Part shown: in pieces, positions 10,493-37,947 of the stretch
Layout: the number at the start of each line of letters is the position of its first letter
Position numbering within the stretch: position 1 is the first letter of the stretch
Assembly: GCA_012295275.1 (NCBI GenBank)
Contig: CM022667.1
Location: 13,516,001-13,580,000 of the forward strand
DNA from: Chrysomallon squamiferum
Taxonomy: Eukaryota; Animalia; Mollusca
Direction: 5' to 3'
Length of the DNA stretch: 64,000 bases
Made by a program: the position numbers and the translations under genes
Notes under the pieces: generated by a model
What the model was told of the DNA's origin: nothing
Database searches by the model: none
What the model saw: only the letters and a program-made list of their open reading frames with translations

Positions 10493-11364
10493 GTAAAACA
10501 TGCAACAACCAGCAGCAGTGACAAATGCGACAGAAACCTGTTTATTCGTTTATGACAAGTGTTTGTTTATTCCCTAGTACAAAATTTTGTATTGTACATT
10601 TCTGAAAATGTTCTGACAGTCATATTACTCACTGTTGTTGAATAAATGTTTTTTTTTTTTTATTCCCTAGTACAAGAATTTGTTAAATTTGTTATCGTCT
10701 TTGCGTACACTTCTCACTTACTAAGCAATAAAAATCTATATTTTTCTGGTAGGTCACAGTAGTACTCTCTGTTGGCAATAAATATTTTCAGACGTCAAAC
10801 TCAAAATTTTGCCAAACAATGAATGTGTTTGCCTTTATATATTAAAATAAATACAGCAGAAACAAAAAACACGAGAATAAAAAAATGAGAGATAAAAGTA
10901 AAACAGAGGAATAACCGTCAGAAATACAACTCATCAAAAGCAAACAAAGAATGCAACAAAAGAAAATAACAGAATTCTATTTGACACAACTGACTGCTTT
11001 CAAACCAGATATCGGTTTACATTGATTCATTGATTTTGTATGCATTTACACCTCTCTCTGAATGATTAAATATTGAATTTCAAGCATAAACTGTGAATAA
11101 TAATGACTTGCTCTGTTGTATTATTAAAAGATCTCTAGTTATAACAGGTTTTGCTAAAATATTTTTTATTAGGACTCTATATTTGATAATCATTATTAGT
11201 CTAAGTTTCACGGAGTTTCATTTGTTATATTAACTGAACTGACAGTTGTAAATAGAAAAGTTAACAGTTAAGATGAAAACCTTTCTCATGAAAGAAATCT
11301 GGGTTTTGGCTCTATTTGTGGATTATAAAAGTGCAGAAAGGTACATATAAATATGCTTACAGAC

Positions 11365-11371
<7 letters not shown>

Positions 11372-11458
<87 letters not shown>
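11372..11458 (+). repeat. (AG)n microsatellite in intron 1
   Basis: Directly visible. Confidence 0.97.
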
Positions 11459-11460
<2 letters not shown>

Positions 11461-12254
11461 TATCTTGTTACTGTTTCACTATTATCATCATCATCATTGG
11501 TAATCTTCAAAATCTAGTTGTTAAATTTGTAATATTGCTGTGCATGTCTACCCCTTGTTATCAAGTTTAAGTCAGTATTCTGATTCTGTTTTTGTTCTTT
11601 TCTTTCAATGCTGTCATTTTGTTGTTGTTTTATTCGTGGGGTTTTTCAGGGTTTTTTTTCAGAAATATCTGGGAACAGAAGTAACGTTCTTAAAATTAGG
11701 ATATCAACCTCTATTTTGATTATAAAAACACACATATCTATTCTTTGTTTTACTAGATGTTTTATTAATAACTGCAGGAGCACCCGTTCATCTGTTTGGA
11801 TTAGAAATCTAAATTTTAACGATGTCGATGTAAACTATGGGCTCCTATCTTCTCTAGATGGAATTACAAACGCTGAGGCTTATGGGATACGATGTGCTTG
11901 AGATTTTCAAATTACAACAGTTACTCCAAATCACCTGGCTGGAAATATTTCTATTTGAATGCAGGTAACGTAGATTTATTTGTTTATTCGTTAGTACTAT
12001 ACTAGTTATTACTGATTTTATTTTAATATTATTAATATAATTTTTGTTTTCTTATATATTTAATTGTTCCAGATGATAAGAGTAGAGTTGGATCTTGAAT
12101 AACTTTCGACTGTTATGATTTACACACAAAGATGCACAGACATACATAACTTTTATACGTAGATACCTCACCGAAAATTGTATGTGTACTTATATGAATA
12201 AATAAATAAACACATAAATATATAAGTACATGCATAAAATTGCATAAGCATATA

Positions 12255-12298
12255 ACAATAACAACAACAATAACAACAACAACAACAACAACAACAAC

Positions 12299-12386
<88 letters not shown>

Positions 12387-12387
12387 G
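12255..12387 (+). repeat. Compound (AAC)n(AAT)n microsatellite
   Basis: Directly visible. Confidence 0.97.
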
Positions 12388-12789
12388 TAAATCAATTAGT
12401 TGTTAAGAAGCACGTTATTTGTAATGAAAAAATCATTTTAAATATCTAAGACGTGAAAGAAAGAAATTAACTGTTTTACAGGTTCATGTCCAGTAGAAGA
12501 CGGGTTTGTGTTCTTGGACGAAGTGCATCTGTGTATGAAGGCTTTTGTGGATAAGAAAACATTTTCTCAAGCACGTGGCGCCTGCAGTCAGATAGGTTCA
12601 AGACTGATTGTACTGGACTCAAAAGAGAAAAACACAGCTGTTGGTGACTACATCCAAGCAAACATAGGTAGGAATTGAAATAATCTTCTACCACATATAG
12701 AATTTATCTCTGCAATTGTAAATAAAACATTCGCTTTAAAATTATTGTTGTTGTTGTTGTTCTTCTTCTTCTTGTTCTTTTTTCTTCTT

Positions 12790-12820
<31 letters not shown>

Positions 12821-13808
12821 TTATTATTATTAGTAGTAGTAGTACTGTTGTAGCTTTTGTTGTCTTTGTTGTTACTATTATTATTGTTGTTCTTTTATCG
12901 TTATTGTTTTATTAATACTGTTTATATCATTATACAAATACAGAGGAACGTTTGTACATCGGACTGACTGATGAAGTTACAGAAGACGTGTATGTTTGGT
13001 ATTTCAGCAGTTCAGGCAGTGTTTTTCATTTGAGGACTGTATTATTTTATATTTTCCGTTGAACACATGGCATGATGTCGAATGTTCCCGAAGTCAGAAT
13101 TACATTTGTGAGAAATCAGTGTGATTTTCTAGATTGTCAGAAATCGATTGTTTTCTGTATTATCACAAACAAAATGTAATATTAAAATCAGTTTTGTCAG
13201 TTCTTAATACTTGATGAATGAGCAGTGTTTATAAATGACAACGACGTTGGTGATGATTATGATTATAATGATCATGACGATAATGATAAATGTCATGTTA
13301 CTGTTCAATGTCTCATGATTGTCATCATGCTGTTTCCTCTGTCATTAATGAAAAGAAGATTTTATTTAAAAATAGGAATCAGCAATTTCTAAAAAAAAAA
13401 GCGTTTTACCGAGGACGGCCAAAGGCCGTTCGCATTTTGACAAACATCAACATAGCAGCACTGAAATGTCACTCTCTTGAAAACCAACAAATATTACCCC
13501 AGCTATATTGATTTACATTATTCCATTGATTCTTTGTCAGTATATATCATCTGCATGAACTACCAAGAAGAAAAAAGTAATAATAAACGAACATGATATC
13601 GTATGATGGCATTAACTGATTTCTCGAGTTTCATGTTGTTCTTATTAATGCAACACAAAACACAATAACGTCGTGGTATTCTGAATACGAACTTGCTTCT
13701 ATTGTAAACATGAACAGTGTTTAATCGGAACCAAATACAGATACACACAGCGTGGTACAAATTATTACACTGGTTAATTTGGTTGAAATTCGTTCATTTT
13801 TGCGAGAG

Positions 13809-14044
13809 ATGCATTACTCACGATATATTTTGTTGGTAGCGTTTGTAATCTGTTGCCATAGTAACGAGAGGTATGTAATATTCTGTGTTATTATATTGCT
13901 AACTACTGAGGAAAGAGACAAGATAAAATGTACAACAAAGTTCTGTGATATTGCAATAAGAGAAATGTATTGTTATAAAACAAAATCAAACCGAATGGAA
14001 ATTAACTTTTCATTGTTTGATTTTAATTTTCTTTAATAATAATA

Positions 14045-14103
<59 letters not shown>

Positions 14104-17052
14104 CAATATTTAAAAGAAAAATTATATTTTCTTATAGAAAAATAAAAGTATAGACTTTATAGAAACAGGAACAAGATTCATACAGAAAGAGCCTAAGCAA
14201 ATAAGAATTATATAAAATGTATTGGTTTGAGAAGGCGTCCGAGTAAATTTCAGATTGCTGAGTTAAGTTTATTTATATCTCTTCACAGAATAATAACAAG
14301 AACAATCACAACAACAAAACATACTAAAGAAAATTAAATTAAAATAAGTAACATGAAAGATAAAACTAAGAAACAAGTAAAACAAAAGAGTAATAATCAA
14401 AATGAAACTTATTAAAAAATTAAAATAAAACAAAATAAATAAATAAATAATATAAAAGCGAACAAACTAACAAAAGAAAAAACCAAAGAAAAAAGCAAAA
14501 CACAGAAAAATAATCCAATAAAAAAAAAGCAAAAAAAAACAAAACAAAAACAGTAAAGGAAAACGATGAAGGAAAGAAGAAAACATAATCTGTATAAAAT
14601 TACATTTGATACAACTGTCTGTTCTGAAACATTGATTTTAGTCATTTTGTATACAATTGCATTCCTCTCCGAATGATTTCAAATTAAATTCCAAATTTAG
14701 TCAGTATCATAATTACCATAATGTTAGTCTCAGTCGTTGATGTAAACACAGGCGAAGGTGTTGTTGACGTTGATTATTTTGATGACATTTGAGATGATGT
14801 CAACTTTTCCGGTGATTGTGTGTTGTGTATTTATATTTATTGATTCCGAGATAGTGTCGAATGTTAAAAAATGTAGTCATTAAAAATTAATTCATTTGAG
14901 TGATTACAACAATTATACTGAACGTTTTCATGTCCTTCGGCTTAATTCCACATTTTGTTAAAGTTAAATTTCTGTCTAAAAGTTTTCTGTTTTAACTGTT
15001 TCTAAGAACTAATGTTTAACTAATTAGCAGCGTAAGTTTCACGGAGTTTCATTTGTGTTAAGAGCGAAAATGAAAACCTTTCTCATCAAAAGAACGTGGG
15101 ATTTAGCAGAGAGACAGACAGAATACACCTTGTTGCTATCATTGTAGTTTCGCATTGCAGTCTTGCTGTGCATGGCTACCCCTTATTATAAGGTTTCACT
15201 GAGTATTATTATTGTGTTTTTGTTCTTTTGTTCTTTTGTTTTTTTTGGGTTTTTTTAATTATTTTTTTAGGAAGATTCTCGGATTAATTCAATTTCGGCT
15301 GCAGACCTCGTTTTATTAATTCGTACTAAAAGTCACGTGTTGTGAAAAATGAGGACGTCAACCTCCATTTTGATTACAAAACTACATCAACTTTACTGAA
15401 AATACTTCTTACTTATCTTTTAATATATATATAGATATTTACTTTTTTGTGTTTTTGTACTAGATGTTTTATTAATAACTGTAGGAGCACCCGTTCATCT
15501 GTTTGGATTAGAAATGTAAATTTTAACGATGTCGATGTAAACGATGGGCTGCTATCTTCTCTAGATGGAATTACAAGTGCGGTGTTTTGTGGGATACGAT
15601 GTGCAGGTAACTCTATCTGTAAATCGTTTTCATACAATGTGCCTGGTGTTTGTCGACTCCATTCAGTGAGATTTTCAGATTACAACAGTTACTCTAAATC
15701 ACCTGGCTGGAACTACTTCTACCTTTCTGCAGGTAGTATAGGATTTATTTATTTATTTATTTATTTATTCATTTATTTATTTATTTATTTATTTATTGTT
15801 TGTTTGTTTATTTTCTTGTTTGTTTTTTAGTATTAGTGCTATTCATCTGATTTTATAGTTGTTCTGAATTGTTTAGACTATTATTATTACTATTACTGTT
15901 ATTACTGTTATTACTGTTATTATTATTTTTATTTTTCAACTGGATATTTAACTCTCACAAATGATAACAACAGGGTACGGTCTTGAAATATGTTCCACTG
16001 TTATGATTTATAGGCATGGCTACATCACATACACACACACACACATGCACATAGACACACCTATACGTACCTACTTACTAATATATATATATATACATAC
16101 ATAAAATTGCATAACCATATAATAATAAGAAGAAGAAGAACGAGAAGAAGAAGAATTAATCAGTCAATTGTTTGAATATACTTATATGTATGTATATACA
16201 TATACACACTTATACATACGTATATAAAATTGCATAAACATATAATATTAATAACATCAACAATAAGAATAAGAATAGTAACAAAAACTAGGACAAGATA
16301 AAGAGAATTAGTCAGTTGTTTGAATACACATTATTTGCAATGATGAAATCACGCCTGGCACGAACAAATTAACTGTTTTATTCTCGCAGGTTCCTGTCCA
16401 GTAGAAGACGGGTTTGTGTACTTGGACGAAGTGCTTCTGTGTATGAAGGTTTCTGTTGAAAAGAAAACATTTTCTCAAGCACGTGACGCCTGCAGTCAGA
16501 TAGGTTCAAGACTAATTGTACTGGACACAGAAGAGAAAAACACAGCTGTTGGTGACTACGTCCAAACAAACATAGGTAGGAAGTGAAATATTGATATACT
16601 ATTACTGAAATAATCTTCTACAACATAAGCAGTATCCCTCTGCAGTTGTAAATAAAACTTTATCTATAAAATATTATTACTGTTATTGTTGTTGTTGTTG
16701 TTGATGGTTGTTATTATTATTATTATTGTAGTTGCTGTGGGATTTTTGGGGCGTTTTGATGTTGTTGTTGCTGTTGTTGCTGCTGCTGCTGCAGTATCTG
16801 TTTCATTAATACTATTTTTATTATTATGCAGATACAGATGAATATTTGTACATCGGACTGACTGATGAAGTTACAGAAGACGTGTATATTTGGGAGAACG
16901 GAGTTCAGGCAGTGTTTTTCAACTGGGGAACTGGTGAACCTCACAATAATAATTTGAACGAGGACTGTATTATTTTACGTTTTCCGTTGAACACATGGCA
17001 TGATGTCGACTGTTCCCGAAGTCAAAATTACATTTGTGAGAAACCAGTGTAA
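13809..17052 (+). CDS. Probable chimeric PAN-CTLD gene, EPH/WHD motifs. Exons 13809-13870 (subfamily C signal exon), 15485 (or 15464)-15732, 16390-16575, 16832-17052
   Basis: Exons 2-4 are open with canonical splice sites. The native B-type exon 1 at 15070 is truncated and has no donor. The upstream orphan exon MHYSRYILLVAFVICCHSNER|GTATGT is phase 2 and therefore compatible. The exon 1-2 join is inferred. Confidence 0.65.
15070..15108 (+). pseudogene. Truncated subfamily B exon 1 (MKTFLIKRTWD...)
   Basis: Matches the start of the exons at 11273 and 20741, then jumps to AG-rich intron sequence; the hydrophobic core and GT donor are lost. Confidence 0.75.
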
Positions 17053-17973
17053 TTTTTTTACATTGTGAGAAACCATTTGTTTTCTGTTTTAACATGTAAA
17101 TAAAACAAACACAAAAATCAGTTTAGTCAATACTTGATGAATCAGTAATATATAAATGACGATCATAATTATGATTTTTATAATGATCGTGTCGATAACG
17201 ATATTGGTCATGTTGACTTTTATTAAATGAAATTAGTAGTCTACTGTAGAAATTACTATTTTCTTTCTGGTCATGTTCATCATTATCATCATCCTCATCA
17301 TCGTCAGCAACAACATCATCGTGAAGTCCCAAGGAAAACGAAATATATTAAATGATAAGTTCCAGTATTTTTGCCTCACGAAGATGTTACGAGTTATTTC
17401 TGAACGGTCAGAAGATGTTTCTAGAACAAACTAGTGTTTAACGCATTCTGTAAAATGATAATCGTTCAGAAGTTTCTTAGTTTCCAATTTGTGTAAATAA
17501 GATTGAAAAAAAAACGTAAAAATAATTTAAAAAATAAATAAGTAAAATTGAATAAATAAAAACTAATAATTATAATAAAAAAAATAAATAAATAAATAAA
17601 TAATGCAAAGCATATGTGTAGGTTACAATGCTACAGCAAAGTTTTTCGATTACAGTGTTTTGTATTTTATTAGAAGTCATTTTATCGGATCACTACTATG
17701 CCAAAAATTGACTTTCGTTGGAAAACGAGGAAAACCATTCATGTACAGAAAGGGAAACAATTCTAATTGTGTGACGTCAATAGCTAGGTTTAAATATTTC
17801 TGACCACATTATGAACAGTGATTTGAATTTGAATGGCAAAAAATAAAAAGAAGCCAAAAATAAAATTAAAAAGCGTTCAAACAAGATTCTGTAACATATC
17901 TACTTGACGATTAAAATAAATACTTTGAGGAAAGATAGAACCATGGATATGGCAATTTACAAAAATTCAAGAT

Positions 17974-18036
<63 letters not shown>

Positions 18037-20740
18037 AATAAATAAATAAATAAATTAAATTAATTAATTAATTAATTAATTAATCAATAGTGCCACTAAG
18101 AACAACAAAATAAAATATCGGAAATGATTGTAATCAAACGAAGATGAACTTCTCATATACTGAAAGTTGGACCTAAATTTAATGCTCGCGAAAAAGACAA
18201 AATACAAACCCCGGCGTTCTTCGTAGGAATCGACGGTTACCGTCGATTATTGAACAAATTTGTATTTGATTTTTTAACTTTGTCTTAGTGGCCGAGTGGT
18301 ATCATCATACGTCCTCTATTCATTCAAGCTGAGTATTGTCAGAAACCAATGTAACTTTGTTGCATTGTCAGAGACCAGTGTGTTATTGTATACTGTTCTG
18401 TATTACTGTTGTAAATAAAACTAACAAAATCCGTACACCGAATCAGTTTATAAATGACGACTACAATTATTGTGGTGATGATTATAATAACGGTTATCAT
18501 GATGATGTTTATGACGAGGTTCATTAAATTAAAATAGTTGTCTCACAGAAAATTATTCATTTCGTGATCATCATAACCATCATTTCGTCAACAGTATTTC
18601 AGGAAATAAAAATTAAGAACAGGAACAGCTGTAAACAAAAATCGCAATCAATGTTCAACATAATACAGGAAGAAGCTGACTATAATTATGGATATTAGCA
18701 AATTTTGAACAATGGACCTTCGTCAAAACACTAATAATATAAAAATTATCAAGAGCAACAACAGTATCAACGGAAACGGCAGTATCAAACAGAATTTAAC
18801 TGCCCCTGTACTCATATCTGAACCTAAAATTAATGCTTGTAAAACTGAGGAAATACAAAGAATGGCGTGCTTTGTAGGAAGCGATTATTACGGTTACTGA
18901 GCAACATTTTTTATGGTTATCTTGATGGCTGTGTGTATCGTCTTCCACTCACTATTCATTCGTAAATACATAGATACAGATATCTATACATACTGTGTTA
19001 TTTTATCAGTATATTTTTACGTTAGAAAATATCAACAAAACACATCGGAAATGTCAGATATATTAACTGGCAGTATAATTACGTTATTGTTAAAATTATG
19101 TGAAATACCTAAAGAATTAAAAATAAAATGCACGAGCTTTTCCAAAACTCTGACTATAAAGTAAACATGAAAGTATAAAAAATAACCAAAAAAAAATATT
19201 TCACCTCATCTGGAAAGTTTAAAATTACTTTTAATATTTTATATAACTTCTCTTTTTCAGTATTTGTTGTACAGAGCAGGTTATAGCAAAATGTCGAGAA
19301 GACGTCTCATCTGAATTTAGATCAATTATTATTATTATTATTATTATTGTTGTTGTTGTTGTTGTTGTTGCTGCTGCTCTTCTTTATGTTTTTTTAATGT
19401 TTTTGTTATTGTTGTTGATGTTTATTTTCATCCGTTCAAGTATTTGGTTTAGAAATCTAATATTGGAACACATTGATTTATTGATTTTGTACACATTTAC
19501 ACCCGTCTCTGAATGGTTAAAAATTAAATTCCGACTGTGAACTTTGAATAATAATGACTTGTTCTGTTGTTTATTAAAATACCATATACTACAAAAGAAA
19601 ATTATATTTAGTAAATATCAACATTAATAACATGTCAGTGATGATCATCGTATTAATCACTTGTGCTTGTTTTGGTTGTTGTCGATTTTAATGATTTTGT
19701 TTTAGATGATGTTCACTGTTATGGTGATGGTCCGTTTTGTACTCACATTTATTGAAAATCATTAAAAAACAAAAAAACATCAATTAAAAAAAAATATAAA
19801 AATCCTTTGAACTATATAATAGTTCTATTGACAGTTTTCATGTCATTATTTCTTTCCTATTGCAGAAAACTAAACAAAAACGACAACAACCAACAACGAC
19901 AACAACAACAACAAAAAATCAAGAACAAACGAAAGAAAAAACAAAACAAGGATGGTAAAATAATAATTCTATTAGAAATGTTCTCAGGAGTTATCACGTC
20001 GAAAAAGAAATAAGAAAAGAAAACGAAAAAAACAATACAAACAGACAGAAAGAGAGAAAAATAAAACAGAAGAATAATAATTAAAAATAAAACGCCTCAA
20101 AAACGAACAAAGCGTCAAATAAAATAAAATAATAGAATCACATTTGACGCAACTGACTGCTGTGAAGCCAAATATCGGTTTACATTGATTCATTAATTTT
20201 GCATACATTTACACCTCTCTCTGAATGATTAAATGTTCAATTGCATCTATGACCTTTAACCACTAATGACTTGTTCTGTTGTTTGATAAAATATGTATAG
20301 TTATTACAGTACCATATAAAGATGTTTTGAGTCAGTATAGCATTAATAAAAAATGCTAGTCATGATCATTTGTATTGTCACAATGAAGCTGTTCCCATTG
20401 CAGTTATTGCTAGTGTTGTCCCTGATGTTGATGTTGTTTTGGTCGATGTCATTTGCTATCGTGATCACCTGAGATTTATTGATTATTAGTTAGAATGAAA
20501 TGGCTATGAATGTGGTCATCAAAAAATTAAATTAAATTTATTGGAGTGTGAAGCAAATCCCATTATTTCAGTTTAATACCACGTTTTTGCTGAATTTAGT
20601 TTATAAAAATTTTGGTTTTCCTAGCTTTGGTTATTAGGAACTCGTATTTGATACTCCATATCAGCCTAAGTTTAATGGAGTTGCATTTGTTTATAATGAG
20701 GTGAACGTACAGTTGGAAAATAGAAAAGTTAGCAGCTAAA

Positions 20741-21924
20741 ATGAAAACCTTTCTTATCAAAGGAATCTGGGTATTGGCTGTCCTCTTGTGTTGTGAAACT
20801 GCAGAAAGGTATGTATAAACGTCCTAAGACAGATTTTCTTGGAATTTTCCCATATTTTATTCTTTTGACGCTACAGTAAATATAAAACTTGGGTAATCTA
20901 TCAGAGCTATCTCTGATTTAAAAAGTCACATAAAACTGTATAAAAACAGTTGTCAAAATGGACTTGTCCTGTAAAATAATACAGACCGTCTTACGTTTCT
21001 CAGATCTACCAATTTTGTATTATTAAGCTCACTGTTGCAGTTTATATTGGCTCGTTTATATACGAAGGCGTGGAATTTCTTCTTTTTTTAAATTTCTTTC
21101 TGTTGTTTTCATTTTATAATAATAATAATAATAATAATAATGATAATACTAATGGGTGGGTGAATGGATGTATGTACGTACTTATGTATGTATGTATGTA
21201 TGTACATTTTCCTAGATGTTTTATTATTATAGGTGCAGGCCTTCATCTATCTGGATTAGAAATGAAAATTTTAACGATGTCGATGTAAACGATGGGCTCC
21301 TATCTTCTCTAGGTGGAATTACAAGCGCTGGGTTTTGTGGGATACGATGTGCAGATAACTCTGTCTGTAAATCGTTTTCATACAATGTGCGTGGTGTTTG
21401 TCGACTCCATTCCCTGAGATTTTCAAACTACAACAGCTACTCTAAATCACCTGGTTGGACCTATTTCTACCTGAATGCAGGTAGTATAGGATTTATTTAT
21501 TTATTCATTTATTTATTCTTTGTTTGTTTGTTTATTTTCTTGTTTGTTTTTTAGTTTACGTATACAAGTACGAATATAAAATTGCATAAACATATAATAT
21601 TAATAGCATCAACAGTAATAATAATAATAACAAAAACAAGAACAAGTAAAAGAGAATTAGTCAGTTGTTTGAATACACATTATTTGCAATGATGAAATCA
21701 CACCTGGCACGAACAAATTAACTGTTTTATTCTCACAGGTTCATGTCCAGTAGAAGACGGGTTTGTGTACTTGGACGAAGTGCATCTGTGTATGAAGGCT
21801 TTTGTGGATAAGAAAACATTTTCTCAAGCACGTGACGCCTGCAGTCAGATAGGTTCAAGACTGATTGTACTGGACTCAGAAGAGAAAAACACAGCTGTTT
21901 GTGACTACATCGTTTGATACATAG
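20741..21924 (+). pseudogene. Subfamily B PAN-CTLD gene with a nonsense codon and missing exon 4. Exons 20741-20808, 21233-21480, 21739-21924
   Basis: Signal exon MKTFLIKGIWVLAVLLCCETAER and PAN exon are intact. In-frame TGA at 21915-21917 (GCA in paralogs). Intron 3 is cut off at ~22125 relative to the 37.35-39.6 kb paralog. Confidence 0.85.
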
Positions 21925-22702: not shown

Positions 22703-22733
<31 letters not shown>

Positions 22734-25598: not shown

Positions 25599-25603
25599 CA
25601 CAG

Positions 25604-26315: not shown

Positions 26316-27711
26316 GTGGAACAACACGATAATGAGGTGGATAAAAAAATCCTGATTTTGATGATCTTGTGATAAACCACAGGTTTCATATCTTCTGCTG
26401 ACAAAATTTCATCGCAAGGCCTTTGTGGGATACGATGCGCAAATAATTCTACCTGTATTTGGTTTTCGTACAACGTGTATGGAATTTGTCGTCTGCATTA
26501 TTTGAGATTTACAAATTCTGCAAGCTATACAGCTTCACCTGACTGCACGCACTTTTACCTGAGTGCAGGTACAAATACATACACTCACACACGCACACAT
26601 TCAAAATACCTTAAATTCATTATAGACACAGACACACACACACAGACACACACAAATATATTAAAAAAAAATACTTTAAATTAATTGAAACACACTCACA
26701 GAAAGACAGTAATAAAATTTTTAAAATATATATATATTTTTTATAATAATTATTATTACTGTCTTTCAGAAAGACAGTAATAAAATTTTTAAAATATATA
26801 TATATTTTTTATAATAATTATTATTACTGTCTTTCTGTGTGTGTTAATTTAAAGTATTTTTTTAATATTTGTGTGTGGTTCTGTGTGAGTGTGTCTGTCT
26901 ATACATATATATATATTTACTTTTCTAAGATTGTAAAGAAATTACTAAAACTATCCTTGTAACAAAAATTAGTCCATACTTGACTTTACTGTAAGTATTA
27001 TTCTTAATTCTGAAAACAAATTATAATTTTAAAAACCTTTTTAGAAATTATTATCATTTCCTGACAGGTTCATGTCCAGTGGAAGATGGGTTTGTTTATC
27101 TGGACAAACTGAACCTCTGTTTCAAAGTGTTCAGCGATCAGAAAATATTTTCTGAAGCACGTGACGCCTGCAGTGAGATAGGTTCAAGACTGATTGTACT
27201 GGACACAGAAGAGAAAAACACTGCTGTCGGTGACCACATCCAAACAAACATAGGTAGGAACATAGCTATTGATATACAACTACTACTGCTAAACCTACAA
27301 CTATTTCATTTACTTGACAACGAAAGCTTCTATAATAAATGCGGTATTTTTCACCAGTTGTAACTAAATACATTTTTCAGTGATTGTTATTATTATTGTT
27401 AATATTATTATTGTTATTTTTGTTGTCGTTGTCTGTGTCGCTGTTGTTATTGTCATTGGTATTTTTATTAGTTCTGTTATTATTATTCAGACACAGGTGA
27501 ATATTTATACATCGGACTGACTGATGCTGTTACAGAAGACGTGTATGTTTGGGAGGACGGAAATCAGGCAGTGTTTTTCAACTGGGGAACCAATGAACCT
27601 CACAGTAGTAACGGTAACGAGGACTGTGTTGTGTTACGTTTTCCTTTAAACACATGGCATGATGTCTTCTGTTCTACCAGACTAAATTATATTTGTGAGA
27701 AACCAATGTGA
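26316..27711 (+). CDS. PAN-CTLD gene, C-like variant, EPH/WHD motifs; exon 1 not visible. Exons 26316-26568 (frameshifted near the gap), 27068-27253, 27491-27711
   Basis: Exons 3 and 4 are intact (..NWGTNEPHSSNGNEDC..TWHDVFC..YICEKPM*). Exon 2 is 253 nt, with small insertions within ~80 nt of the contig end. Either a pseudogene or a consensus error. Confidence 0.6.
26621..26903. repeat. Imperfect fold-back (inverted repeat) enclosing a 68-bp tandem duplication
   Basis: Arms ~26621-26715 and ~26821-26903 are reverse complements; 26700-26767 is repeated at 26768-26835. Confidence 0.85.
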
Positions 27712-28039: not shown

Positions 28040-28400
28040 CGTAAGAGATGGTTTAATTAGGGCAGTTGCAGACTGGGAACCTTGGCATCACAACTGATTA
28101 GCATCTGAGTTTCACAACTGTCGAGATACAGTAGACAGCCATTACCTTTTTGATCATTGTTCGCTTTCCTTTTGAGAAGTTTCAGCTAGTAGGGTCGTTT
28201 TTCTTCAGTTGTAACCTTGAATGCAGCATCCCCAAATGTTCTGTTCCTTTTTCCCCTGGCGCTCTGGCTATCATTTCTCCCACCTGTAAAAATACAGAGA
28301 ACGCCATTTTGAAAAGGGTTGCAAATAAATCGGCTTCAAACTGAGATAAAGAAATAATAGATATTGGAGCCACAAGACAATATCAGCCGTTTTCCTGACA
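28040..28400 (-). mobile_element. DIRS-like tyrosine recombinase catalytic-domain remnant
   Basis: EADLFATLFKMAFSVFLQVGE resembles the YR AF..FLR.GE box with Arg replaced by Gln. After a frameshift, ANNDQKGNGCLLYL resembles SKTDQ.G.G. Shares GACAATATCAGCCGTTTT and CCTGACATTAAATGGGATTATA with 4736-4960. Confidence 0.65.
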
Positions 28401-30283
28401 TTAAATGGGATTATACTACCACATTACGAATAATCTGTACTAACACCAAACACAGAAACGTGTATAAAAAGTTGCACATTCGTTTCTAATAGTAATCTAC
28501 AGTTTTAACTAATCCAAATCAGTTGCCCTTGACATTTCTATACAGCCATTTTCTTTCCATACATTTTTATTAATTCGGAATCATTTTCTGTAGGAGGAGA
28601 AGTCATCTTATTTTATTGTAGTTGTTGTTGTTGTTGTTGTTGTTGTTGTTATTATTATTATTATTATTATTATCTGGTATACTACTATTAAGAATTTATT
28701 ATTATACATACATATAAACATACGTATATATATACATCATATAATTAAAGAGAAAAACAACAAACCAACCTAAAAACTCTCTGTATTTATGAATTCGAGC
28801 CAAAATAAAAATAAAAAAGGTTCTAAAAAATACATCGACTTGTAAACCAGTGTAGGTACCTTTAAATTCAGGCACATCGACATAACATTAGACAGATTGT
28901 TTTTCTTCTTTTTTTAAATTAATGTTGTGAATATCAGTTTAGATGTTGATTATTTTATTCGTAAATGAATAGAGAAAGATATTGATTTAAGGAACAATTG
29001 TTTGTAATATATAGTACTCTGATTTGCGTAAATAATGTATTTCTCTCTCTTTTTTTTTATGTGATTATTATTATTATTATTTTCTTAATAAAATTCATCT
29101 TACGATTGACAGTATTGATTGTGTCAAGCTGACAAAACATTAAATGAATTTCATTTTCCCAGAGGAACAATCCTGGTCGTCTGTGAATATTTAATAATAT
29201 TTTGTCACTTGAAACGATTATTATCAAGAAAATAATTATTTCAGCATGTCACACATCAGTTATATTTCTGGATCTGTTGATTTTTTCTTTCGAATTTTCA
29301 GTTTACTGCTTAATCTTTGCTTTATGATTAACATTCGTAGTAGTAGCGTGAATAATAGAAGTACAAACAATTAAGTAAGCATTATAAATATTAGTAACAG
29401 TAACGTAATTAGTAGTGGTGGTAACAGAAGCAGTGACGTAAATAGCAGAACCAGTAGTAGTAGTAGCGATAACACAAACACAAGTAGTAGGAGTAGTAAG
29501 TAGTATAACAATAACGTAATTAGAAGTAGTGGCAGTGGTGTAGTAGTAGTAGTAGCAGCAACTGTAGTAGTAGTAGTAGTAGTAGCAGTAATAGTGGTTA
29601 GTGGTAGTAGAAGTATTAATGTTTTTCTCTGCCTTTAGAAGTGAATATTTAATTATGTGTGGAAGAAACAAAGGTTTTGGTTGAATTGTCAGTATCAAGT
29701 GTAACAGAAGCAGTACAGTTGTAATCGGTTCATTTGGTGTTATTTACTTTGTATTACCTCCCTTGTGCTCGCTATATGTTTATTCTTGTTATAAATATTT
29801 AATTTTTGATTTGCAATAGCGATAGATACGCTTCGTGTGAGTGGACTGAAAAGTATTTAACTTGTTTATAGCTTGGATTCTTTCAACAACATCGGTAGAC
29901 AGACACACAGAAACACAGACGTGCTGTTATTAGCTGTTTTTCATTTCTTCAGTATATTTGAAAGTGCTCACCACTTAGATGTATTTTAAACTGATAGTAT
30001 TTCTCTCTTTTTTCATCCTTTTCATTTTTTTTTTTTTTTTCCTGAATCCACAGTGATCAGAGCTGGTAATCATTACTACGTTACTTATTTTATATATACT
30101 AATTTTAACGAGATATTGTGTTTTATTTCTTCGTTTTCCAGATTTTATTTTTATTATAAAAAGAACATCCCACCTTTTGATCTAATTTGTTTTATCTTTT
30201 ACTAGCAACTGCTGCAGTAGAAGTAGTAGTAGTAGTAGTGTCTTCTTGTCATTATTATTCTTATTCTTATTCTTATTATTATG

Positions 30284-30344
<61 letters not shown>

Positions 30345-30351
<7 letters not shown>

Positions 30352-31105
30352 TGGACATGGCTTCAAAACCCATATTACAATAACAGGGCTACTGATGATT
30401 TCAAGAAATATAACATGTACAATGTAGTGAACTGTTAAACAAATAGAACACGTGTAAAATATTGAGGTGTTGAAGAAATGGAATATTAATAATGTTTAAT
30501 ATATTAACTGGACGAACAGATACATTATATTGATACTTTAAATGGTGTATTATGACAGGACAGAAATACAATTAAGAATAACTAAACACTTTATTGACAC
30601 GTTTCTGTCAAGTATATGTGGGAGAATGGTGGACAATATACAAGAGGAAAATTTGACTATACAAAATAGTTTCTGAAGCGCGTGACACCTGCAGTCAGAT
30701 AGGTTCAAGACTGATTGTACTGGACACAGAAGAGAAAAACACTACATCAAAACAAACATAGGCAGGAACTTATACATTTATAAACAACTACTACTTCATC
30801 TACTGCACAGCAATACCCCTCCAATCACTACTACTAGTAAATTACTGCTACTACTACTGCTACACTGTTATTTGTCATACGTTTTAGATACTATGAGTTT
30901 TTATACAAATCTAAAAGTAAGAAAAGATGGAAAACAATTTTGTTTGGGAGAATGGACAAAACCCCGTCCATTTTGAAAAATAGGACAACAATGAATCCGA
31001 TAACTATCTGGAAGATTGAGCGATATTAATTCCAACAAGCAAAATGTGGTGTGACATTAACTGTATACTTTCAGTAAATATAGATTTGTGAAAAACCGTT
31101 GTTAA
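30345..31105 (+). pseudogene. Decayed PAN-CTLD pseudogene, duplicate of 6355-7120
   Basis: Same exon 2/3/4 remnants with additional lesions. Confidence 0.75.
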
Positions 31106-31750
31106 AGTCACATGATATTTGTTGAATAAACAAACATAAAATTAAATTTATTTATTTATTTATATATTTGTTTGTTTTATTTATACGTCCAAGCGATTAA
31201 TAAAAAAAAAATGTAATTATCATTATCACCAACCTGTCATTCATTCATTTCTTGATTCTTTCATTCTTTTTATTTTTTTACGGATGCTTACAACCGCAAT
31301 GTTTTGAATAATTAAAATGACAGCAAGAACAACAGCAGTAAGAAAAGCAATAAATAAATGAGATGTAGTACAGATATTAAATGATGATTATTTCGTAGAA
31401 GAATTAAGCAACATTGAAGGGATTAAAAATATGATCGATGAAAAACAAAAATTAACAAAATAAAATAAAAACTATATTAAATTCACTCAGAATTGTTGAG
31501 TACACCACAACAAACTGAAACTGTTCAGAATTCAGTACTAAGACTGCAAGCAAACTGTACAGAAATAAGCGAATGTGACAAATACAAACAGAAACTGAAC
31601 AATAAAAATACAACTAAAGAAGAATTGTTTTTCAGTTTATTTATTTAACTGACCTGCATTACAATTATCATATAAGTCGAAGAAAATCTGCTTGAAGATA
31701 TGATTTTTTATTTTTTTATTTTATTTTATTTTTTTTGTTGTTGTTGCTCG

Positions 31751-33001
31751 TCAGGTTCTTACGATTAATTTAGAGCTTTCACATATGTATTTGAAACGTC
31801 TTTTACATCCAACATCTCCCCATTTGCTTAAACCAGATACAAATATAGTGCAGTCTTCATAGTCGAAATTATCAGGTTCATTTTCATTCCAGTTTGTATA
31901 AATGGCTTTTTCGCCATTCTCCCACACATACGTTTTCTCCTCAACTTCATCAGTTAATCCGATGTAAAATTTGTCGAGATTTGACCCTGTAAAACAAATG
32001 AATGTAAATGTAGTAATAGTAATAGCAGTAGTAGCGGTGGTATAGGAATAACAATAGCGATGAAGCAGCAATAGCAGAGACAGATGCAGGAAAACAAGTA
32101 GAAGTGGAAGCAGTGTTAATAGTAATAGTAGCAGAGGTAGTAAGTAGTATTGTTGTAGTGGGAGTAGTTACTAAAAAGCATTCATTGCAGAGCTTTCCAA
32201 AGTGAATAACTGCCAGGGAAAGTATAGTTTTTGTTCATGAAATTTGAGGCAGAATGAAATTGTGTTTGCTTGAAATTTATTTTTGATAACAGACAAAATC
32301 TGCTGATGTAGGTTTATCGGGTCATACTGCTATCTGATATCGTTAGAGTATGTGGTCCAAAGTCATAAGTGCATAGCATGGGGACAGTATTGCGAGGTGA
32401 ATTTGTATATATTTAAATAGACAGGATTGGAAGTGAGGCATTTTGTCGAGATACCAATAGTGATTATAAAGAGATATAACTGCAATAATACCAGTGGTAG
32501 TAGTTTTCGTATTTATAGCAGTAACAATTGTAGCAATCGTAAAGATAGTAGTAGTAATACTAATTGTAGTAGAAGCAACAGAAGTAACAGAAAAAGTAGT
32601 AGTAGTAGCAGTAGCAGTGGCAGTTATTGTTGTCGTAGTAGTTGTAGTAGTAATAGTAATACTACTGATCAAATGAAACAAACACATAAATAAATAAATA
32701 GAAAGGGAAATAAGAAAACAGCAGACACACCTATGTTTGAAAGGTAGCTCGACATAATTCTGTTTTTTTCTTCCGTGTCTAACACGATCAGTCTTGGTCC
32801 CAGCTGGCCGCAAGCAACACGTGCCTCAGCAAATGTTTTACGATCTTCAGACAACTTGAAGCACAGTGTTCCCAAAAACACGAAACCCTCATCAGTCGGA
32901 CAGAAATCTATGAAACGAAAACAACTATATAACAGTCACTACAATAATATTTTTATATACATAATTATGCACCCATCGTTACCGCCGTTATCCCAAAAAA
33001 T

Positions 33002-33032
<31 letters not shown>

Positions 33033-33771
33033 TCAGACGATTACAGTATAATGTAAAATACATACTGTTACGATAAAAACATAAAATTCATTTCACTACC
33101 ACACAAAGATAAAATTTTAGCTTTTGCCATAAAAAGATGAACTTGAACATAATGTTATTCAAAGATCAAATTCAAACAGCTAGTATATAGAGAAAACGAT
33201 TCAAATGAGACTGTTGCCAAGCAAAACACAAAATTCAGATTGTTACGACTGAAAGATAAAAGTCATATTATTATTATTATTATAATACAAAGGTTAAATT
33301 TAGCCTGCTACCTGAAGGAATGTAATAGTGCTTCCAGTTTGCCGTGTCAGACGTACTGACGTAAGTACCAACCCTCACAGAATAATGGCGACATTTTCCG
33401 TTGTCGTAGGCAAACGAAAGGCATTCAGGATTCTTGGTGCAGGCAGAGCCACAGTGCATCATGGTCTTGACGTCAGTGGCTTCGTATATTTCAGAGTTAA
33501 ATGCAGTGAAATAATCATATTTTTCTTTCTCAATCCAAATTCATCTTGTTCCAATGCAGCTTCATTGACAGTAAAATAAAACTATTTTCATTACTAGTAT
33601 TAAATAGTGACATTTAGTAAGATATAATTCAGTTGATGACGTTAATCTATTTATCATTCTATCAGTTCATATATTCATAAAGAGTACGTATATTTATACA
33701 TACCTGTCTGCCATTTTAGAACACCCGAAAACAGCTGACAACAACAGAAACTGGATCAAAGTGTTTTGCAT
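31751..33771 (-). pseudogene. Subfamily A copy A3 with a single nonsense mutation, EPD/WGD motifs. Exons 33771-33704, 33559-33312, 32907-32731, 31986-31751
   Basis: All splice sites are intact, but TGG has become TGA at 33541-33543 (plus strand TCA versus CCA in A1, A2 and A') early in exon 2. Confidence 0.8.
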
Positions 33772-33994
33772 TTCATATGAATAAATTTTAGTGAAGAAAA
33801 CGACGAAGTGAACAGGTCGTAATAAATATCAATGTTTGAGCTTATCTTAAGTCAAAATCCCCAAACATCGATTTGCAGCTTTAATATGAAACGTTGCTAC
33901 GGTGTATTTAATTTTTAATGCACAACTGAAGGCTTAACATGTTTTACATCTATTTTGTTTTAATCAACAATCGTTGTTTTTTATATATATATAT

Positions 33995-34573
33995 TGTCAC
34001 GAGGCCCACACCATTAAACATCTTGGATATTTTATTAATGCTCAGTCTAGGGTAACATGGTGCTTTAATGGCCATCTAACAAGGAATGTAAAGGCTAAAT
34101 TAACAACAATCTATATAATCAATATTTAGCGGTCCACTAGATAAATAAACACAATTCGAGTTAAATATTTAATTACAATATACAGATGACTTGATAATAA
34201 TACAAACATTAGTGATATGAGTAAGGTCAGACGGGGAACAAGACAAAATAAAAAAATTCACGGAGGACAGATTAAACAATTAAAGTTTTAGTTATATTAA
34301 ATGTTCCTAAAGAGGTTAATTGCACATTACCCTATCAAAATAAGAATGGACAATAGCTTACCATACTGGTCCGTAAAGACAATGTCATTCAAAAACATTT
34401 GTTTCCCTGCCTGACTGAGCTGTTTAATTACTGAAACTGAAACTGAAAAAAATTAACGTGCTAATCAGAGCAAGAACGTTCATAATTACCAAATGCCAGC
34501 GCTTTTACAACAACGCCATGGAGTTGAAAAAATGGCGTCAACAATAAAAAGCGCGGATCTGATTGTAGTTACA
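33995..34573. mobile_element. Second copy of the candidate solo LTR
   Basis: Near-identical to 2026-2615 at the same insertion site. Confidence 0.45.
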
Positions 34574-34877
34574 ATTAGTTACGATTCTCGATATATATAT
34601 ATATATATATATACCTCCAGATAATTTCTATCTAATTAAGTTTATAGATTTTTCATGCAAGGATTTTCCTGAATTATATAAAGTAAATTATACGGTAACA
34701 GCGAATAATATATTTTTAACCAATATATTTTGATAAACCCACATAACATGTATAATATTTTAATCGGTCAAACATATAGAAAATGTACTTTATATTGATT
34801 GCTTCAATGTTGCATTTTGAGAGAATATAAGATACATGTAAGAGCAACTAAAAATTATTATTATATTGTCACGTTTC

Positions 34878-35450
34878 TCTCCAATGGAAGACGGGTTTAT
34901 ATAAACTCAGTCTGTTTTTACAATTGTTCATTTTTTGTCTTTCGCGCGTGTCGCCTCCACTCAGATAGGTTCAAGTCTGATTGTACTGGACATAGAAGAA
35001 AAAAAACGCAGCTGTTGGTGATTACATCAAGGAAAATTAAATCAGAAATAGGAATATTTATCTACGACTACTACTACTTCATCAACTACTACAACTTCAG
35101 CTACTTTACAGCAGTGTTATTACCACAAGTATTACTCCGACAACTACTGCTACTACTACTAGTAACTTTAACTACTACTACTACTAGTGCTGCTACTAAT
35201 AGTAGAACTGTTACTTCTTTTACTTTTTAAAGTACGATAGGGTTTTATATATATAGGTCTAACAGGTAAAACGATGAAAAACAGTTTTGTTTGAAAGAGT
35301 AGTGAACACGTCCAGTTTGAAAAATGGAAAACAAAATAAGCACAAACCTGGACGTGGAAGATTGTGTAAAACTAATCACAAAAAAGCAAAATGTGAGTCG
35401 ACGTTGGTCCCGTTATATCAGAAAAGAAAATTTGTGGAAAACCTCTGTGA
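34878..35450 (+). pseudogene. Old decayed CTLD exon 3 and exon 4 remnants
   Basis: CCAATGGAAGACGGGTTT..CAGATAGGTTCAAGTCTGATTGTACTGGAC (exon 3) and YIGLT..VEDCVKLI..ATTTGTGGAAAACC (exon 4), with many stops. Confidence 0.7.
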
Positions 35451-36477
35451 AACTGACTTCTTATTTCTTGAATAAAGTAAAAGTAAATAAACTTTTTTAT
35501 TTATTTATGTATTTTTTCTACTTTTGTTTGTCTAGTCGTCCCTACCATTTGAAAATTTAAAATATTACTCTTACTATCATCATCATCATTATTCCAAAGT
35601 ATCCTTATTCATTCGCTATTGCTGTTGTTAGTATTTATTTATTTATTGATTTATTTGCTTTTTCATTTAATTACCATTTATTCTATATGTTTTATTTTTA
35701 TTATTATTAAATTTATGTATTTATTTATTTGTCATATGCTAGAGGAAACCTTTTTTATTAGCAGTTAAGGATATTTTCTTATTATTATCTTGCTGAGATT
35801 GAAATAATCAATAGGGGCCGATGCGGAGAGTTGATCCTGGGATCTGTTATAACCAGGTTCTATACGGAATGAACCACACTGCACCTAGAACAGACAGCAG
35901 TTAGCAGGAGTGACAAATGCGACAGAAACCTGTTTATTCGTTTATGACAACTCTTTGTTTATTCCCTAGTACAAAAATTTGTATTGTGCATTTCTGATGT
36001 ATTCAGCGATAAAGTCGATCATTTTCTGACAGTTATATTACTCTCTGTTGTGAATAAATATTTTTTTTCATTTATACTCTAGTACAAGAATTTGTTAATT
36101 TTTTTATCGTCTTTGCGTATACTTCTCACGTACTAAGCAATACAAATCTATATTTTTCTGGTAGGTCACATTAGTACTCTCTTTTGTCAATAAATATTAT
36201 CAGCTCTGTTACTATCATCATCATCATCATTGGTAATCTTCAAAATCTAGTTGTTAAATTTGTAATATTGCTGTGCATGTCTACCCCTTGTTATCAAGTT
36301 TAAGTCAGTATTCTGATTCTGTTTTTGTTCTTTTCTTTCAATGCTGTCATTTTGTTGTTGTTTTATTCGTGTTTTTAAAATTATTTGTTATTAAAATTAG
36401 GATATCAGCCTCTATTTTGATTATAAAAACACACACACATATATATTTTTTCCTAGATGTTTTATTGTTAATTGTAG

Positions 36478-37665
36478 GAGCACCCGTTCATCTGTTTGGA
36501 TTAGAAATATAAATTTTGAAGATATCGATGGAAACGATGGGCTCCTATCTTCTGTAGATGGAATTACAAGCTCTGAGGCTTATGGGATACGATGTGCTTG
36601 AGATGTTCAAATTACAACAGTTACTCCAAATCACCTGGCTGGAAATATTTCTATTTGAATGCAGGTAACGTAGATGTATTTGTTTATTTGTTAGTACTAT
36701 ACTAGTTGTTACTGATTTTATTTTAATACTATTAATATAATATTTTTTTCCTATATATTTAATTGTTCCAGCTGATAAGAGTAGAGTTGGATTTTGAATA
36801 ACTTTCGACTGTTATGATTTACACACACAGATGCACAGACACACATAACTTTTATACGTAGATACCTCACCGAAAAATGTACGTGTACGTATATGAATGA
36901 ATGAACAAATAAATAAATATATAAGTACAAGCATAAAATTGCATAAGCATATAACAATAACAACAACAATAACAACAATAACAACAACAACAACAATAAT
37001 AATAATAATAACAATAATAATAATCATAATAATAACAATAATAATAATAATAATCATAATAATAAATCAATCAGTAGTTAAGAAGCACGTTATTTTTAAT
37101 GAAAAACATCACTTTTAAAAATTTAAGACATGTGAAAGAAAGAAATGAACGGTTTTGTTCTCACAGGCTCATGTTCAGTAGAAGACGGGTTTGTGTACTT
37201 GGACGAAGTGCATCTGTGTATGAAGGTTTCTGCGAAAAGAAAACATTTTCTCAAGCACGTGACACCTGCAGGCAGATAGGTTCAAGATTGATTGTACTGG
37301 ACTCAGAAGAGAAAAATACGGCTGTTGGTGACTACATCGTTGCATACATAGGTAAATTCGTCTCCTTAATCATCATCACTATATATTATCGTCGTCAATG
37401 ATATTACCATTATTTTGATAATCGTCATTATTATTATTATTATTGTTAACATAATCATCGTGATCCTCACTAATATTATTATTATTTACTAGAAGAACAC
37501 AACTAATTCCACTACTTCCACCACCAGCCTCAACCCTACCATTGTTACTGTTGATACTGCTACTACAACTACCGATACAACCATGACCACTGCTACTATT
37601 GCTAGTATAACTTTTAGTACTGCTAGTACTACCATACCCGTCTCAATTTTATTTATTTATTTGTC

Positions 37666-37701
<36 letters not shown>

Positions 37702-37947
37702 GTTATTATTGTTATTATTATTATTTTAGCCACAGACAACTTTTACATCGGTCTAACAGACGAGAAGATTGAAAACACGTTTGTCTGGGAGAATGGTGAA
37801 GCGGTAAAGTTCACGAGCTGGAACGAAAATGAACCAAGTGATGGTGTCAGAACTGAAGACTGCGTCCTGTTAGTACCAACAGATAAAGTGTGGGGCGACG
37901 TGCAATGTTCTCGACGCGAAAAATACATTTGTGAAAAACTTGTGTGA
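36478..37947 (+). pseudogene. Subfamily B pseudogene lacking exon 1. Exons 36478-36664, 37167-37351, 37730-37947
   Basis: Same 61-nt exon-2 deletion as 11778-11964. Exon 3 is 185 nt (frameshift). Exon 4 is still open (EPS/WGD). Confidence 0.88.

What the first reader, a model, noticed from the sequence alone, without database searches (positions are those of the whole stretch)
11273..37947. Four-way mosaic points to recombination inside exon 3 swapping PAN halves and sugar-specificity halves
Two kinds of upstream half exist. X has the 61-nt-deleted exon 2 and its intron (11778, 36478). Y has an intact exon 2 and an intron ending GAAATCAC.CCTGGCACGAACAAATTAACTG (15485, 21233). Two kinds of downstream half exist. 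P has an intron starting GTAGGAA leading to an EPH-class exon 4. Q has an intron starting GTAAATTCG leading to an EPS-class exon 4. All four combinations occur: X-P (12482), X-Q (37167), Y-P (16390) and Y-Q (21739). Simple duplication cannot give this, so crossover or conversion within exon 3 is implied. An EPH exon 4 is also paired with a C-like PAN exon at 26316-27711. The locus looks like a germline combinatorial shuffling system.
Basis: partly seen in the sequence, partly recalled or inferred. Interest (0 to 1): 0.85.

Follow-up and report, generated by a model that had tools for sequence, protein, structure and literature searches.

The report
Hybrid lectin genes from unequal crossover
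A tandem cluster of genes for likely secreted sugar-binding proteins really does mix front and back halves between copies, but all four mixed copies are damaged, and the pattern likely comes from ordinary mispaired recombination between neighbouring genes rather than a dedicated shuffling system.

Summary
The mosaic is real. In the quartet G1/G6/G2/G3, 27 of 42 informative sites group copies by front half and all precede the 13 that group them by back half. The classes are looser than stated: G1's exon 4 lacks EPH, G3 has no exon 4, and P also leads to QPN. Window 4934-26100 and 28390-43264 are collinear duplicates (about 5-7% diverged) in which the single gene G6 stands where G1, G2 and G3 stand. 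G6 is therefore most simply a fusion made by a 9.3-kb deletion between G1 and G3. 'Y' is an internal patch, likely a gene conversion. An older crossover likely made the G1/G2 lineage. Exchanges fall in or at the edges of exon 3, whose nt 88-173 are homogenised across subfamilies. None of the four mosaics is intact. This works like the hybrid genes of chicken BG (PMC4046983): two gene ends recombined through a scrambled middle. No junction could be phased in other samples, because only short contigs are held. The scan noted a similar mosaic PAN-lectin pair in oyster (unchecked note).

The parts
11273..13124 (+). G1 (X-P): exon 1 11273-11340, exon 2 11778-11964 (61-nt deletion, frameshift), exon 3 12482-12667, exon 4 about 12944-13124 (35-nt deletion removes EPH). 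Broken.
15070..17052 (+). G2 (Y-P): exon 1 truncated with its donor deleted; exons 2-4 (15485-15732, 16390-16575, 16832-17052, EPH) are open. Front end G1-like, intron 2 end G3-like.
20741..22121 (+). G3 (Y-Q): exon 1 20741-20808, exon 2 21233-21480, exon 3 21739-21924 with a stop near its end; exon 4 deleted. Intron 1 and first 22 nt of exon 2 G8-like, then a G1/G2-like patch up to exon 3.
25604..26100 (+). G4: C-type PAN exon 25604-25851, cut off by the assembly gap; 99% like G9
26101..26300 (.). 200-N assembly gap
26316..27711 (+). G5 (C-P, EPH): exon 2 frameshifted (253 nt), exon 3 27068-27253, exon 4 27491-27711
36206..37947 (+). G6 (X-Q, EPS): exon 1 deleted at the 36203/36206 junction, exon 2 36478-36664 (same 61-nt deletion as G1), exon 3 37167-37351 (1-nt deletion), exon 4 37730-37947. 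Likely fusion of a G1 front and a G3 back.
42783..43930 (+). G7 (C-P, QPN): exons 2-4 open; no exon 1 of its own found
45959..48096 (+). G8 (Z-Q, EPS): four exons, open frame; reference parent type
51820..52982 (+). G9 (C-P, QPN): near-copy of G7; no exon 1 found
55042..57175 (+). G10 (Z-Q, EPS): four exons, open frame; near-copy of G8
16477..16562 (+). Exon 3 nt 88-173 (given in G2): tract homogenised across the Z and C subfamilies; the same tract lies in all nine exon-3 copies
4934..26100 (+). Left copy of the collinear duplicated block (holds G1, G2, G3, G4)
28390..43264 (+). Right copy of the block (holds G6 and the start of G7); lacks the 9.3 kb between exon 3 of G1 and exon 3 of G3

Best explanation
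These are real hybrid genes in a tandem cluster of likely secreted PAN plus C-type lectin genes, likely made by a few ordinary germline mispairings between neighbouring copies (unequal crossover, deletion, gene conversion) that resolve in or beside a conserved stretch of exon 3. Shown: the hybrids, the homogenised tract (exon 3 nt 88-173), the collinear duplicated block, and a lesion in every hybrid. Inferred order: (1) two old parent types, Z-front/Q-back (G8, G10) and C-front/P-back (G5, G7, G9); (2) a crossover in the tract joined a Z front to a P back, giving the ancestor of G1 and G2; (3) a conversion patch running from exon 2 (between nt 23 and 45) to the end of intron 2 made G3 resemble G2, which is class Y; (4) the 61-nt deletion arose in the G1 line, which is class X; (5) a block of 15-21 kb duplicated, and in one copy a 9.3-kb deletion between the exon 3s of G1 and G3 fused them into G6 (X-Q). 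The tract codes for the most conserved part of the lectin domain, so it would be the best place to pair; conversion then keeps it alike, which would invite further exchange. The outcome is birth-and-death evolution: mostly dead hybrids, and now and then a new front/back pairing for selection to test.
For: Site order and tree tests. Collinear chain 4934-12670 with 28390-37354, then 21594-26100 with 36999-43264, nothing matching the 9 kb between in register. Synonymous divergence G2-G8 is 0.12 in exon 2 but saturated in exon 4; G2-G9 is 0.92 in exon 2 but 0.24 in exon 4; G8-G9 is 0.82 and 1.53, so G8 and G9 types are old parents and G2 a younger hybrid. In the tract G8 and G9 differ at 3 of 25 synonymous-capable codons against 35 of 86 elsewhere (Fisher p 0.008, tract limits chosen after looking), while the opposite-strand D genes keep the peptide but differ at 7-8 of 17-18. 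G3 and G8 are identical over exon 3 nt 1-137 with 90% identity in exon 2. The quartet G1/G2/G3/G8 pairs G1+G2 at both ends and G2+G3 only in intron 2. Lesions in 4 of 4 mosaics. Paired halves differ by 6-12% (X 29/472, Y 12/179, P 38/328, Q 12/139), against 10/743 for G8/G10, so no half is a mis-copied read of another.
Against: No molecule spanning a junction was seen; the runs are short contigs that break in exon 3. G6 is not a clean G1+G3 fusion: it shares exon 3 nt 152 and 155 with G8/G10 and nt 61 and 64 with G2, and its intron 3 is no closer to G3 (183/220) than to G8 (179/211), so extra patches or a G8-like donor are needed. The direction of step 5 (deletion, not insertion) rests on parsimony. 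At least three front types and three back types meet at the same tract, which is more recurrence than a single accident. G2 keeps exons 2-4 open, and an X3 contig carries the G6-type exon 3 with a base where G6 lacks one, so intact hybrids may exist in other animals.
Confidence: 0.8

Rival explanations
1. The exon-3 tract is a maintained exchange hotspot that lets the family recombine PAN modules with sugar-binding ends as an adaptive, population-level repertoire; the dead copies seen here are its by-products.
For: Three front types (Z, C, and the decayed front of the S copies) and three back types (P, Q, S) share the tract. Silent sites are homogenised. P exon 4 changes amino acids as fast as silent sites between G2 and G7 (dN 0.26, dS 0.24). 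The tract sits just before the exon with the ligand motifs.
Against: 0 of 4 mosaics intact. Exchanges also occur in exon 2. Paired halves are 6-12% diverged, so events are old and few. The reciprocal C-Q pairing is absent among the 9 exon-3 copies. dN/dS near 1 also fits relaxed selection.
Confidence: 0.12
2. The broken copies are a donor library for gene conversion into the intact genes G8 and G10, as with chicken immunoglobulin pseudogenes (comparison recalled).
For: Broken copies outnumber intact ones; G3 and G8 share 137 identical nt; G10 differs from G8 by two adjacent bases in exon 2 where G3 also differs.
Against: G8 and G10 differ at only 10 of 743 sites, so they show no accumulated patches; the clearest patch went into G3, a broken copy. 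No RNA or somatic data.
Confidence: 0.03
3. The mosaics are assembly mis-joins inside exon 3. The one linear path without mosaics pairs X with P twice and Y with Q twice, and needs three wrong joins.
For: Identical runs of up to 65 nt (G1/G3) and 137 nt (G3/G8) in exon 3; a 200-N gap and a 99% duplicated block show assembly difficulty; no junction phased independently.
Against: All eight halves are distinct sequences. The exon is only 186 nt. The older Z/P versus Z/Q incongruence and G3's two-sided patch would remain under any re-pairing. Back halves of G2 and G6 with adjoining exon 3 are seen almost letter for letter in other runs.
Confidence: 0.05

Closest known systems
Chicken BG multigene family (PMC4046983; abstract and passages read)
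   Same: [quoted passage not shown]
   Different: BG genes are Ig-superfamily membrane proteins and their hybrids are expressed; here the genes are likely secreted lectins and all four hybrids are damaged. Copy-number variation between haplotypes is shown for BG, not here.
Human KIR hybrid genes (cited in the reference list of PMC4046983; PMC8763117 seen only as a search listing); Lepore-type globin fusions (recalled)
   Same: Fusion gene formed by deletion between tandem paralogues, as inferred for G6.
   Different: Different proteins; those fusions have known parents and haplotypes.
Sea urchin Sp185/333 cluster (PMC3091723; abstract and outline read)
   Same: Small clustered invertebrate genes of about 2 kb, segmental duplication, microsatellites, proposed gene conversion, known assembly trouble.
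   Different: Sp185/333 has two exons and mosaic elements; no lectin domain; microsatellites bound its duplicated segments, which was not tested here.
Expanded mollusc C-type lectins (PMC10140915, PMC12842671; passages read); PAN plus Lectin_C 'perlucin-like' proteins (named only in scan note e1-9258790, unchecked)
   Same: Large families (over 100 in most gastropods); non-canonical motifs such as QPN and EPD with WHD or WGD.
   Different: The passages read do not describe a PAN plus C-type lectin cluster or its hybrids. Domain labels here rest on motif reading, not on a profile search.
V(D)J, VLR assembly and snail FREP diversification (PMC13428168; passages read)
   Same: Combining parts to vary a recognition protein.
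   Different: Those are somatic and, for V(D)J and VLR, enzyme-directed with working products; none of that is shown here.

Membership tests
Tandem cluster with hybrid genes from unequal crossover/deletion (BG- or KIR-like evolution) | Paralogues in tandem, same orientation | tested here: met
   Ten + strand copies between 11273 and 57175
Tandem cluster with hybrid genes from unequal crossover/deletion (BG- or KIR-like evolution) | Incongruent 5' and 3' trees with a scrambled middle | tested here: met
   AU p 2e-5 and 4e-5; exon-3 tree has 51-63% support inside the Z group; 89-100% identity over exon 3 nt 101-165 across all nine copies
Tandem cluster with hybrid genes from unequal crossover/deletion (BG- or KIR-like evolution) | Hybrid sits where flanks show a gain or loss of the intervening genes | tested here: met
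   Collinear block, G6 in place of G1-G2-G3
Tandem cluster with hybrid genes from unequal crossover/deletion (BG- or KIR-like evolution) | Copy-number variation between haplotypes | not testable with these tools
Dedicated combinatorial system (V(D)J, VLR, donor-cassette conversion) | Working products of the shuffle | tested here: not met
   0 of 4 mosaics have four intact exons; G2 is open only in exons 2-4
Dedicated combinatorial system (V(D)J, VLR, donor-cassette conversion) | Signal sequences at the exchange site | tested here: not met
   No RSS heptamer or nonamer and no Chi match (motifs recalled) in the + strand exon 3 copies, and no 8-, 10- or 12-nt palindrome in G8 exon 3; unknown signals would be missed
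Dedicated combinatorial system (V(D)J, VLR, donor-cassette conversion) | New combinations within one animal or each generation | not testable with these tools
   No raw or long reads listed
Secreted PAN plus C-type lectin domain protein | Signal-peptide exon | tested here: inconclusive
   Hydrophobic 22-residue exon 1 in G1, G3, G8, G10 by eye; no predictor run; none found for C-type copies
Secreted PAN plus C-type lectin domain protein | C-type lectin cysteines, WxW/IGL core, EPN/QPD-site and WND-site motifs | tested here: met
   Read from the translations: EPS/WGD in G6, G8, G10; EPH/WHD in G2, G5; QPN/WHD in G7, G9. Consensus recalled; motif variants as in PMC12842671
Secreted PAN plus C-type lectin domain protein | Profile match to PAN and Lectin_C | not tested
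   PAN label rests on the CxxxCxxxxxCxxFxY pattern in exon 2 (consensus recalled)
Secreted PAN plus C-type lectin domain protein | Calcium-dependent sugar binding, differing between P and Q | not testable with these tools
   Needs binding assays

The most novel reading that the evidence does not exclude
An 86-nt tract in exon 3, kept alike by conversion across subfamilies that are otherwise 35-45% diverged, acts as a standing swap joint that recombines PAN front modules with alternative sugar-binding ends throughout a large mollusc lectin family, so that populations carry intact, selected front/back combinations that no single genome shows: a heritable combinatorial lectin repertoire, perhaps shared with the oyster PAN-lectin clusters.
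Probability: 0.13. Interest if true: 0.62.

Novelty: new member of a known kind. Interest (0 to 1): 0.3.

Why it matters
As it stands it is a clear, compact example of how an invertebrate lectin cluster makes new domain pairings: a conserved coding stretch becomes the pairing site, and a fusion gene can be traced to a specific 9.3-kb loss. It gives exact junctions for testing exchange rates in a mollusc recognition-gene family. It would matter more if intact hybrids proved common and selected in populations, since molluscs lack a known combinatorial receptor system; nothing here shows that.

Tried and rejected
Run search: 9 runs, 3 studies, all contigs; no RNA holder listed. Four of the 9 runs were laid on G2 and G6. 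No listed piece bridges an exon 3 from intron 2 to intron 3 (32 pieces shown of 1523 and 32 of 88). G6's own intron-2 end (37108-37149) had no cover in X1, X3, X5, the X3 piece at 37066-37106 ran on in G1-type letters and the X7 piece in G8-type letters; a hole proves nothing, so the X-Q junction is neither confirmed nor excluded in other animals. Summed contig depth is far higher over exon 3 than over copy-specific introns, but the tool says depth is no copy number, so it was not used. Rejected: pure amino-acid constraint as the cause of the tract (D genes keep the peptide, not the silent sites); Y as a whole front half; simple duplication. G1/G6 as alleles placed in tandem is unlikely at 4.6-7.1% substitution but not excluded; it would make them structural alleles, still recombinant. 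A cryptic donor 74 nt after G2's ATG is in phase with exon 2, a one-in-three chance and without a signal peptide; not counted. Paper searches for this family and mechanism gave nothing specific: 1 review; 0 each; 1 unrelated; 8 listings, none opened; 20 of 43 listed, 2 opened, no PAN-lectin text. PMC6337334 held only author names for 'PAN'. No supplements were read; domain tables in the supplements of PMC10140915 may list this architecture.
Full report
Scope. I mapped every copy of the gene in the 64-kb window (30% GC, microsatellite-rich, one 200-N gap at 26101-26300), tested the mosaic, and looked for its cause. Other scan notes call this genome a snail (unchecked). The labels PAN and C-type lectin come from reading the translations against recalled consensus patterns; no profile search backs them.

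Anatomy. Ten + strand copies share a layout of a 68-nt leader exon, a 248-nt PAN exon, a 186-nt exon 3 (first half of the lectin domain) and a 218-221-nt exon 4 with the ligand motifs. Exon 2 falls into a Z group (G1, G2, G3, G6, G8, G10; 83-99% alike) and a C group (G4, G5, G7, G9), 60-67% between groups. Exon 4 falls into P (G1, G2, G5, G7, G9; 76-98%) and Q (G6, G8, G10), 54-61% between groups. Only G8 and G10 (Z-Q, EPS) have four intact exons. G7 and G9 (C-P, QPN) are open in exons 2-4 but no leader exon of their own was found. All four copies named in the finding are damaged: G1 has the 61-nt deletion and a 35-nt loss in exon 4 that removes EPH; G2 has lost its exon 1 donor; G3 has a stop in exon 3 and no exon 4; G6 has no exon 1, the 61-nt deletion and a 1-nt deletion in exon 3.

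The mosaic is real. Among G1, G6, G2 and G3, 42 sites are informative: 27 pair G1+G6 against G2+G3 (exon 2, end of intron 2), then 2 pair G2+G6 (exon 3 nt 61, 64), then 13 pair G1+G2 against G3+G6 (exon 3 nt 174 onward). None interleave; 0 of 10000 shuffles reach this. Twenty-nine of the 42 are intronic and lean on the alignment of unlike introns, but the 13 exonic sites show the same order. With nine copies (G4 left out, it has no exon 3; G3's exon 4 coded as missing), the front tree has G1+G6 at 99%, G2+G3 at 75% and C at 100%; the back tree has Q at 100% and G1+G2 at 85%. Each alignment rejects the other tree (AU p 2e-5, 4e-5).

The exchange tract. Over exon 3 nt 101-165 all nine copies are 89-100% alike, whereas nt 1-100 separate Z from C (75-81%) and the last 21 nt separate P from Q. 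The last run of Z/C diagnostic sites ends at nt 87, one more lies at 161, and P/Q sites start at 174. G8 and G9 differ at 3 of 25 comparable codons in the tract against 35 of 86 elsewhere (Fisher p 0.008; limits chosen after looking). A third subfamily on the other strand (D) keeps most of the peptide but differs at 7-8 of 17-18 such codons, so silent-site identity among the + strand genes reflects exchange, not only constraint.

How the four pairings arose (inferred). First, synonymous distances show two old parents and a younger hybrid: G8-G9 0.82 in exon 2 and 1.53 in exon 4; G2-G8 0.12 and saturated; G2-G9 0.92 and 0.24. So a Z front was joined to a C-family P back, giving the G1/G2 line. 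Second, Y is a patch. In the quartet G1/G2/G3/G8, G1 pairs with G2 at exon 2 nt 5-22 and again from exon 3 nt 174, and G2 pairs with G3 at 17 sites at the end of intron 2. G3's intron 1 is G8-like, and from exon 2 column 45 it shares derived bases with G1 and G2; the later part of exon 2 is mixed, so the patch is old or came from a relative of G2. Third, 4934-12670 matches 28390-37354 and 21594-26100 matches 36999-43264 in order, at 223/4216, 81/1139 and 104/2268 mismatches in three main pieces. The right copy has one gene, G6, where the left has G1, G2 and G3. A deletion of 9257 bases between the two exon 3s makes G6 in one step; an insertion would need two crossovers. Against a clean story: G6 shares nt 152 and 155 with G8/G10, not G1 or G3, and its intron 3 is as close to G8 (179/211) as to G3 (183/220), though its flank beyond is collinear with G3's.

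Assembly artefact. Paired halves differ by 6.1%, 6.7%, 11.6% and 8.6%, against 1.3% for G8/G10, so an error could only re-pair real halves. The one linear order free of the four-way mosaic needs three wrong joins in a 186-nt exon, and it would leave the Z/P hybrid and G3's patch standing. Four of nine public runs were laid. G2's back half with part of exon 3 appears with 2-3 differences in X3 and X5 and its 3' flank with 0-4 differences in X1, X3 and X5. G6's exon 3 end and Q intron (37315-37392) appear with no difference in 3 of 4 runs, and one X3 contig follows G6-type exon 3 from 37163 to 37318 with 3 differences and a base where G6 lacks one. No listed piece bridges intron 2 to intron 3, so junctions are not independently phased; one run may also be the window's own source.

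Mechanism and rivals. Most likely (0.8): meiotic mispairing of tandem paralogues at their best-conserved coding stretch, giving crossovers, a deletion and conversion patches, with most products decaying. A maintained, adaptive hotspot (0.12) is not excluded: decayed S copies at 6675, 30663 and 34944 join a further front and back type to the same tract, and P exon 4 shows dN about equal to dS between G2 and G7. A donor-library reading (0.03) and mis-assembly (0.05) are weaker. No RSS- or Chi-like motif (recalled) lies in the exchanged exons.

Comparison. The chicken BG family shows the same picture, two 5' groups, two 3' groups, a scrambled middle, explained by unequal crossover or deletion (PMC4046983, abstract and passages). 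The Sp185/333 cluster is an invertebrate parallel with duplication and proposed conversion (PMC3091723, abstract and outline). Gastropods mostly hold over 100 C-type lectin genes (PMC10140915, passages), and tripeptide motifs vary widely and do not reliably predict sugar specificity in bivalves (PMC12842671, passages), so 'sugar-specificity halves' is a hypothesis. V(D)J and VLR are somatic and enzyme-directed (PMC13428168, passages); nothing here matches that. I found no paper on this family's hybrids; subscription papers and supplements were not seen. A scan note on an oyster window reached a similar verdict for a PAN-lectin pair (e1-9258790; unchecked, not independent support).

Verdict. 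Observation partly confirmed; recombination supported; dedicated shuffling system not supported. New member of a known kind; interest 0.3.

Noticed in passing
window 1802-701, 9890-7787, 33771-31769, 60598-57691 (- strand): A third subfamily (D) with the same four-exon layout. Copies at 9890 and 33771 end in an EPD exon 4; the copy at 60598 has a frameshifted exon 3 and an unrelated exon 4 lacking the EP motif (about 61% to EPD type) although its exons 1-3 are about 80% like D2: probably another front/back mosaic.
   Followed up: partly
window 6675-7116, 30663-31064, 34878-35377; exon-4-only copies at 22756, 40171, 62460: Decayed S-type copies: a different exon 3 front joined to the homogenised tract, a P-like intron start and a third exon 4 class (59-61% to Q).
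   Followed up: partly
window 24740-25851 and 41957-43030: An intact D-type leader exon in the same phase lies about 800 bases before the C-type PAN exon of G4, with a truncated D PAN exon between; a leader-borrowing chimera is possible. Before G7 the same leader has lost its ATG. No C-type leader was found in the window.
   Followed up: partly
window 42767-49844 and 51804-58897: 7-kb duplicate (G7-G8 and G9-G10) with 64 mismatches in 6992 aligned bases: a very recent tandem duplication or two alleles placed in tandem.
   Followed up: partly
window 25531-26100: G4 is 99.1% like G9 and ends at the N gap, so it may be a misplaced haplotype piece.
   Followed up: no
window 60031-63909 against 22656-25297 and 38662-42536: Inverted copy of the block that follows the Q genes, showing inversions within the cluster.
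   Followed up: no
window 42689-42850 and 25450-25620: Local duplication of the first 84 nt of the C-type PAN exon with its acceptor, giving a second possible acceptor.
   Followed up: no
window 2787-3830 and 18176-19193: A 1-kb element at 91% identity, holding part of a P-gene 3' flank, sits in the spacer between G2 and G3 and near the window start.
   Followed up: no
window 49728-50449: Complex 119-149-bp tandem repeat built of AGT-rich units, likely in the intron of a minus-strand lectin relic ending at 48600.
   Followed up: no
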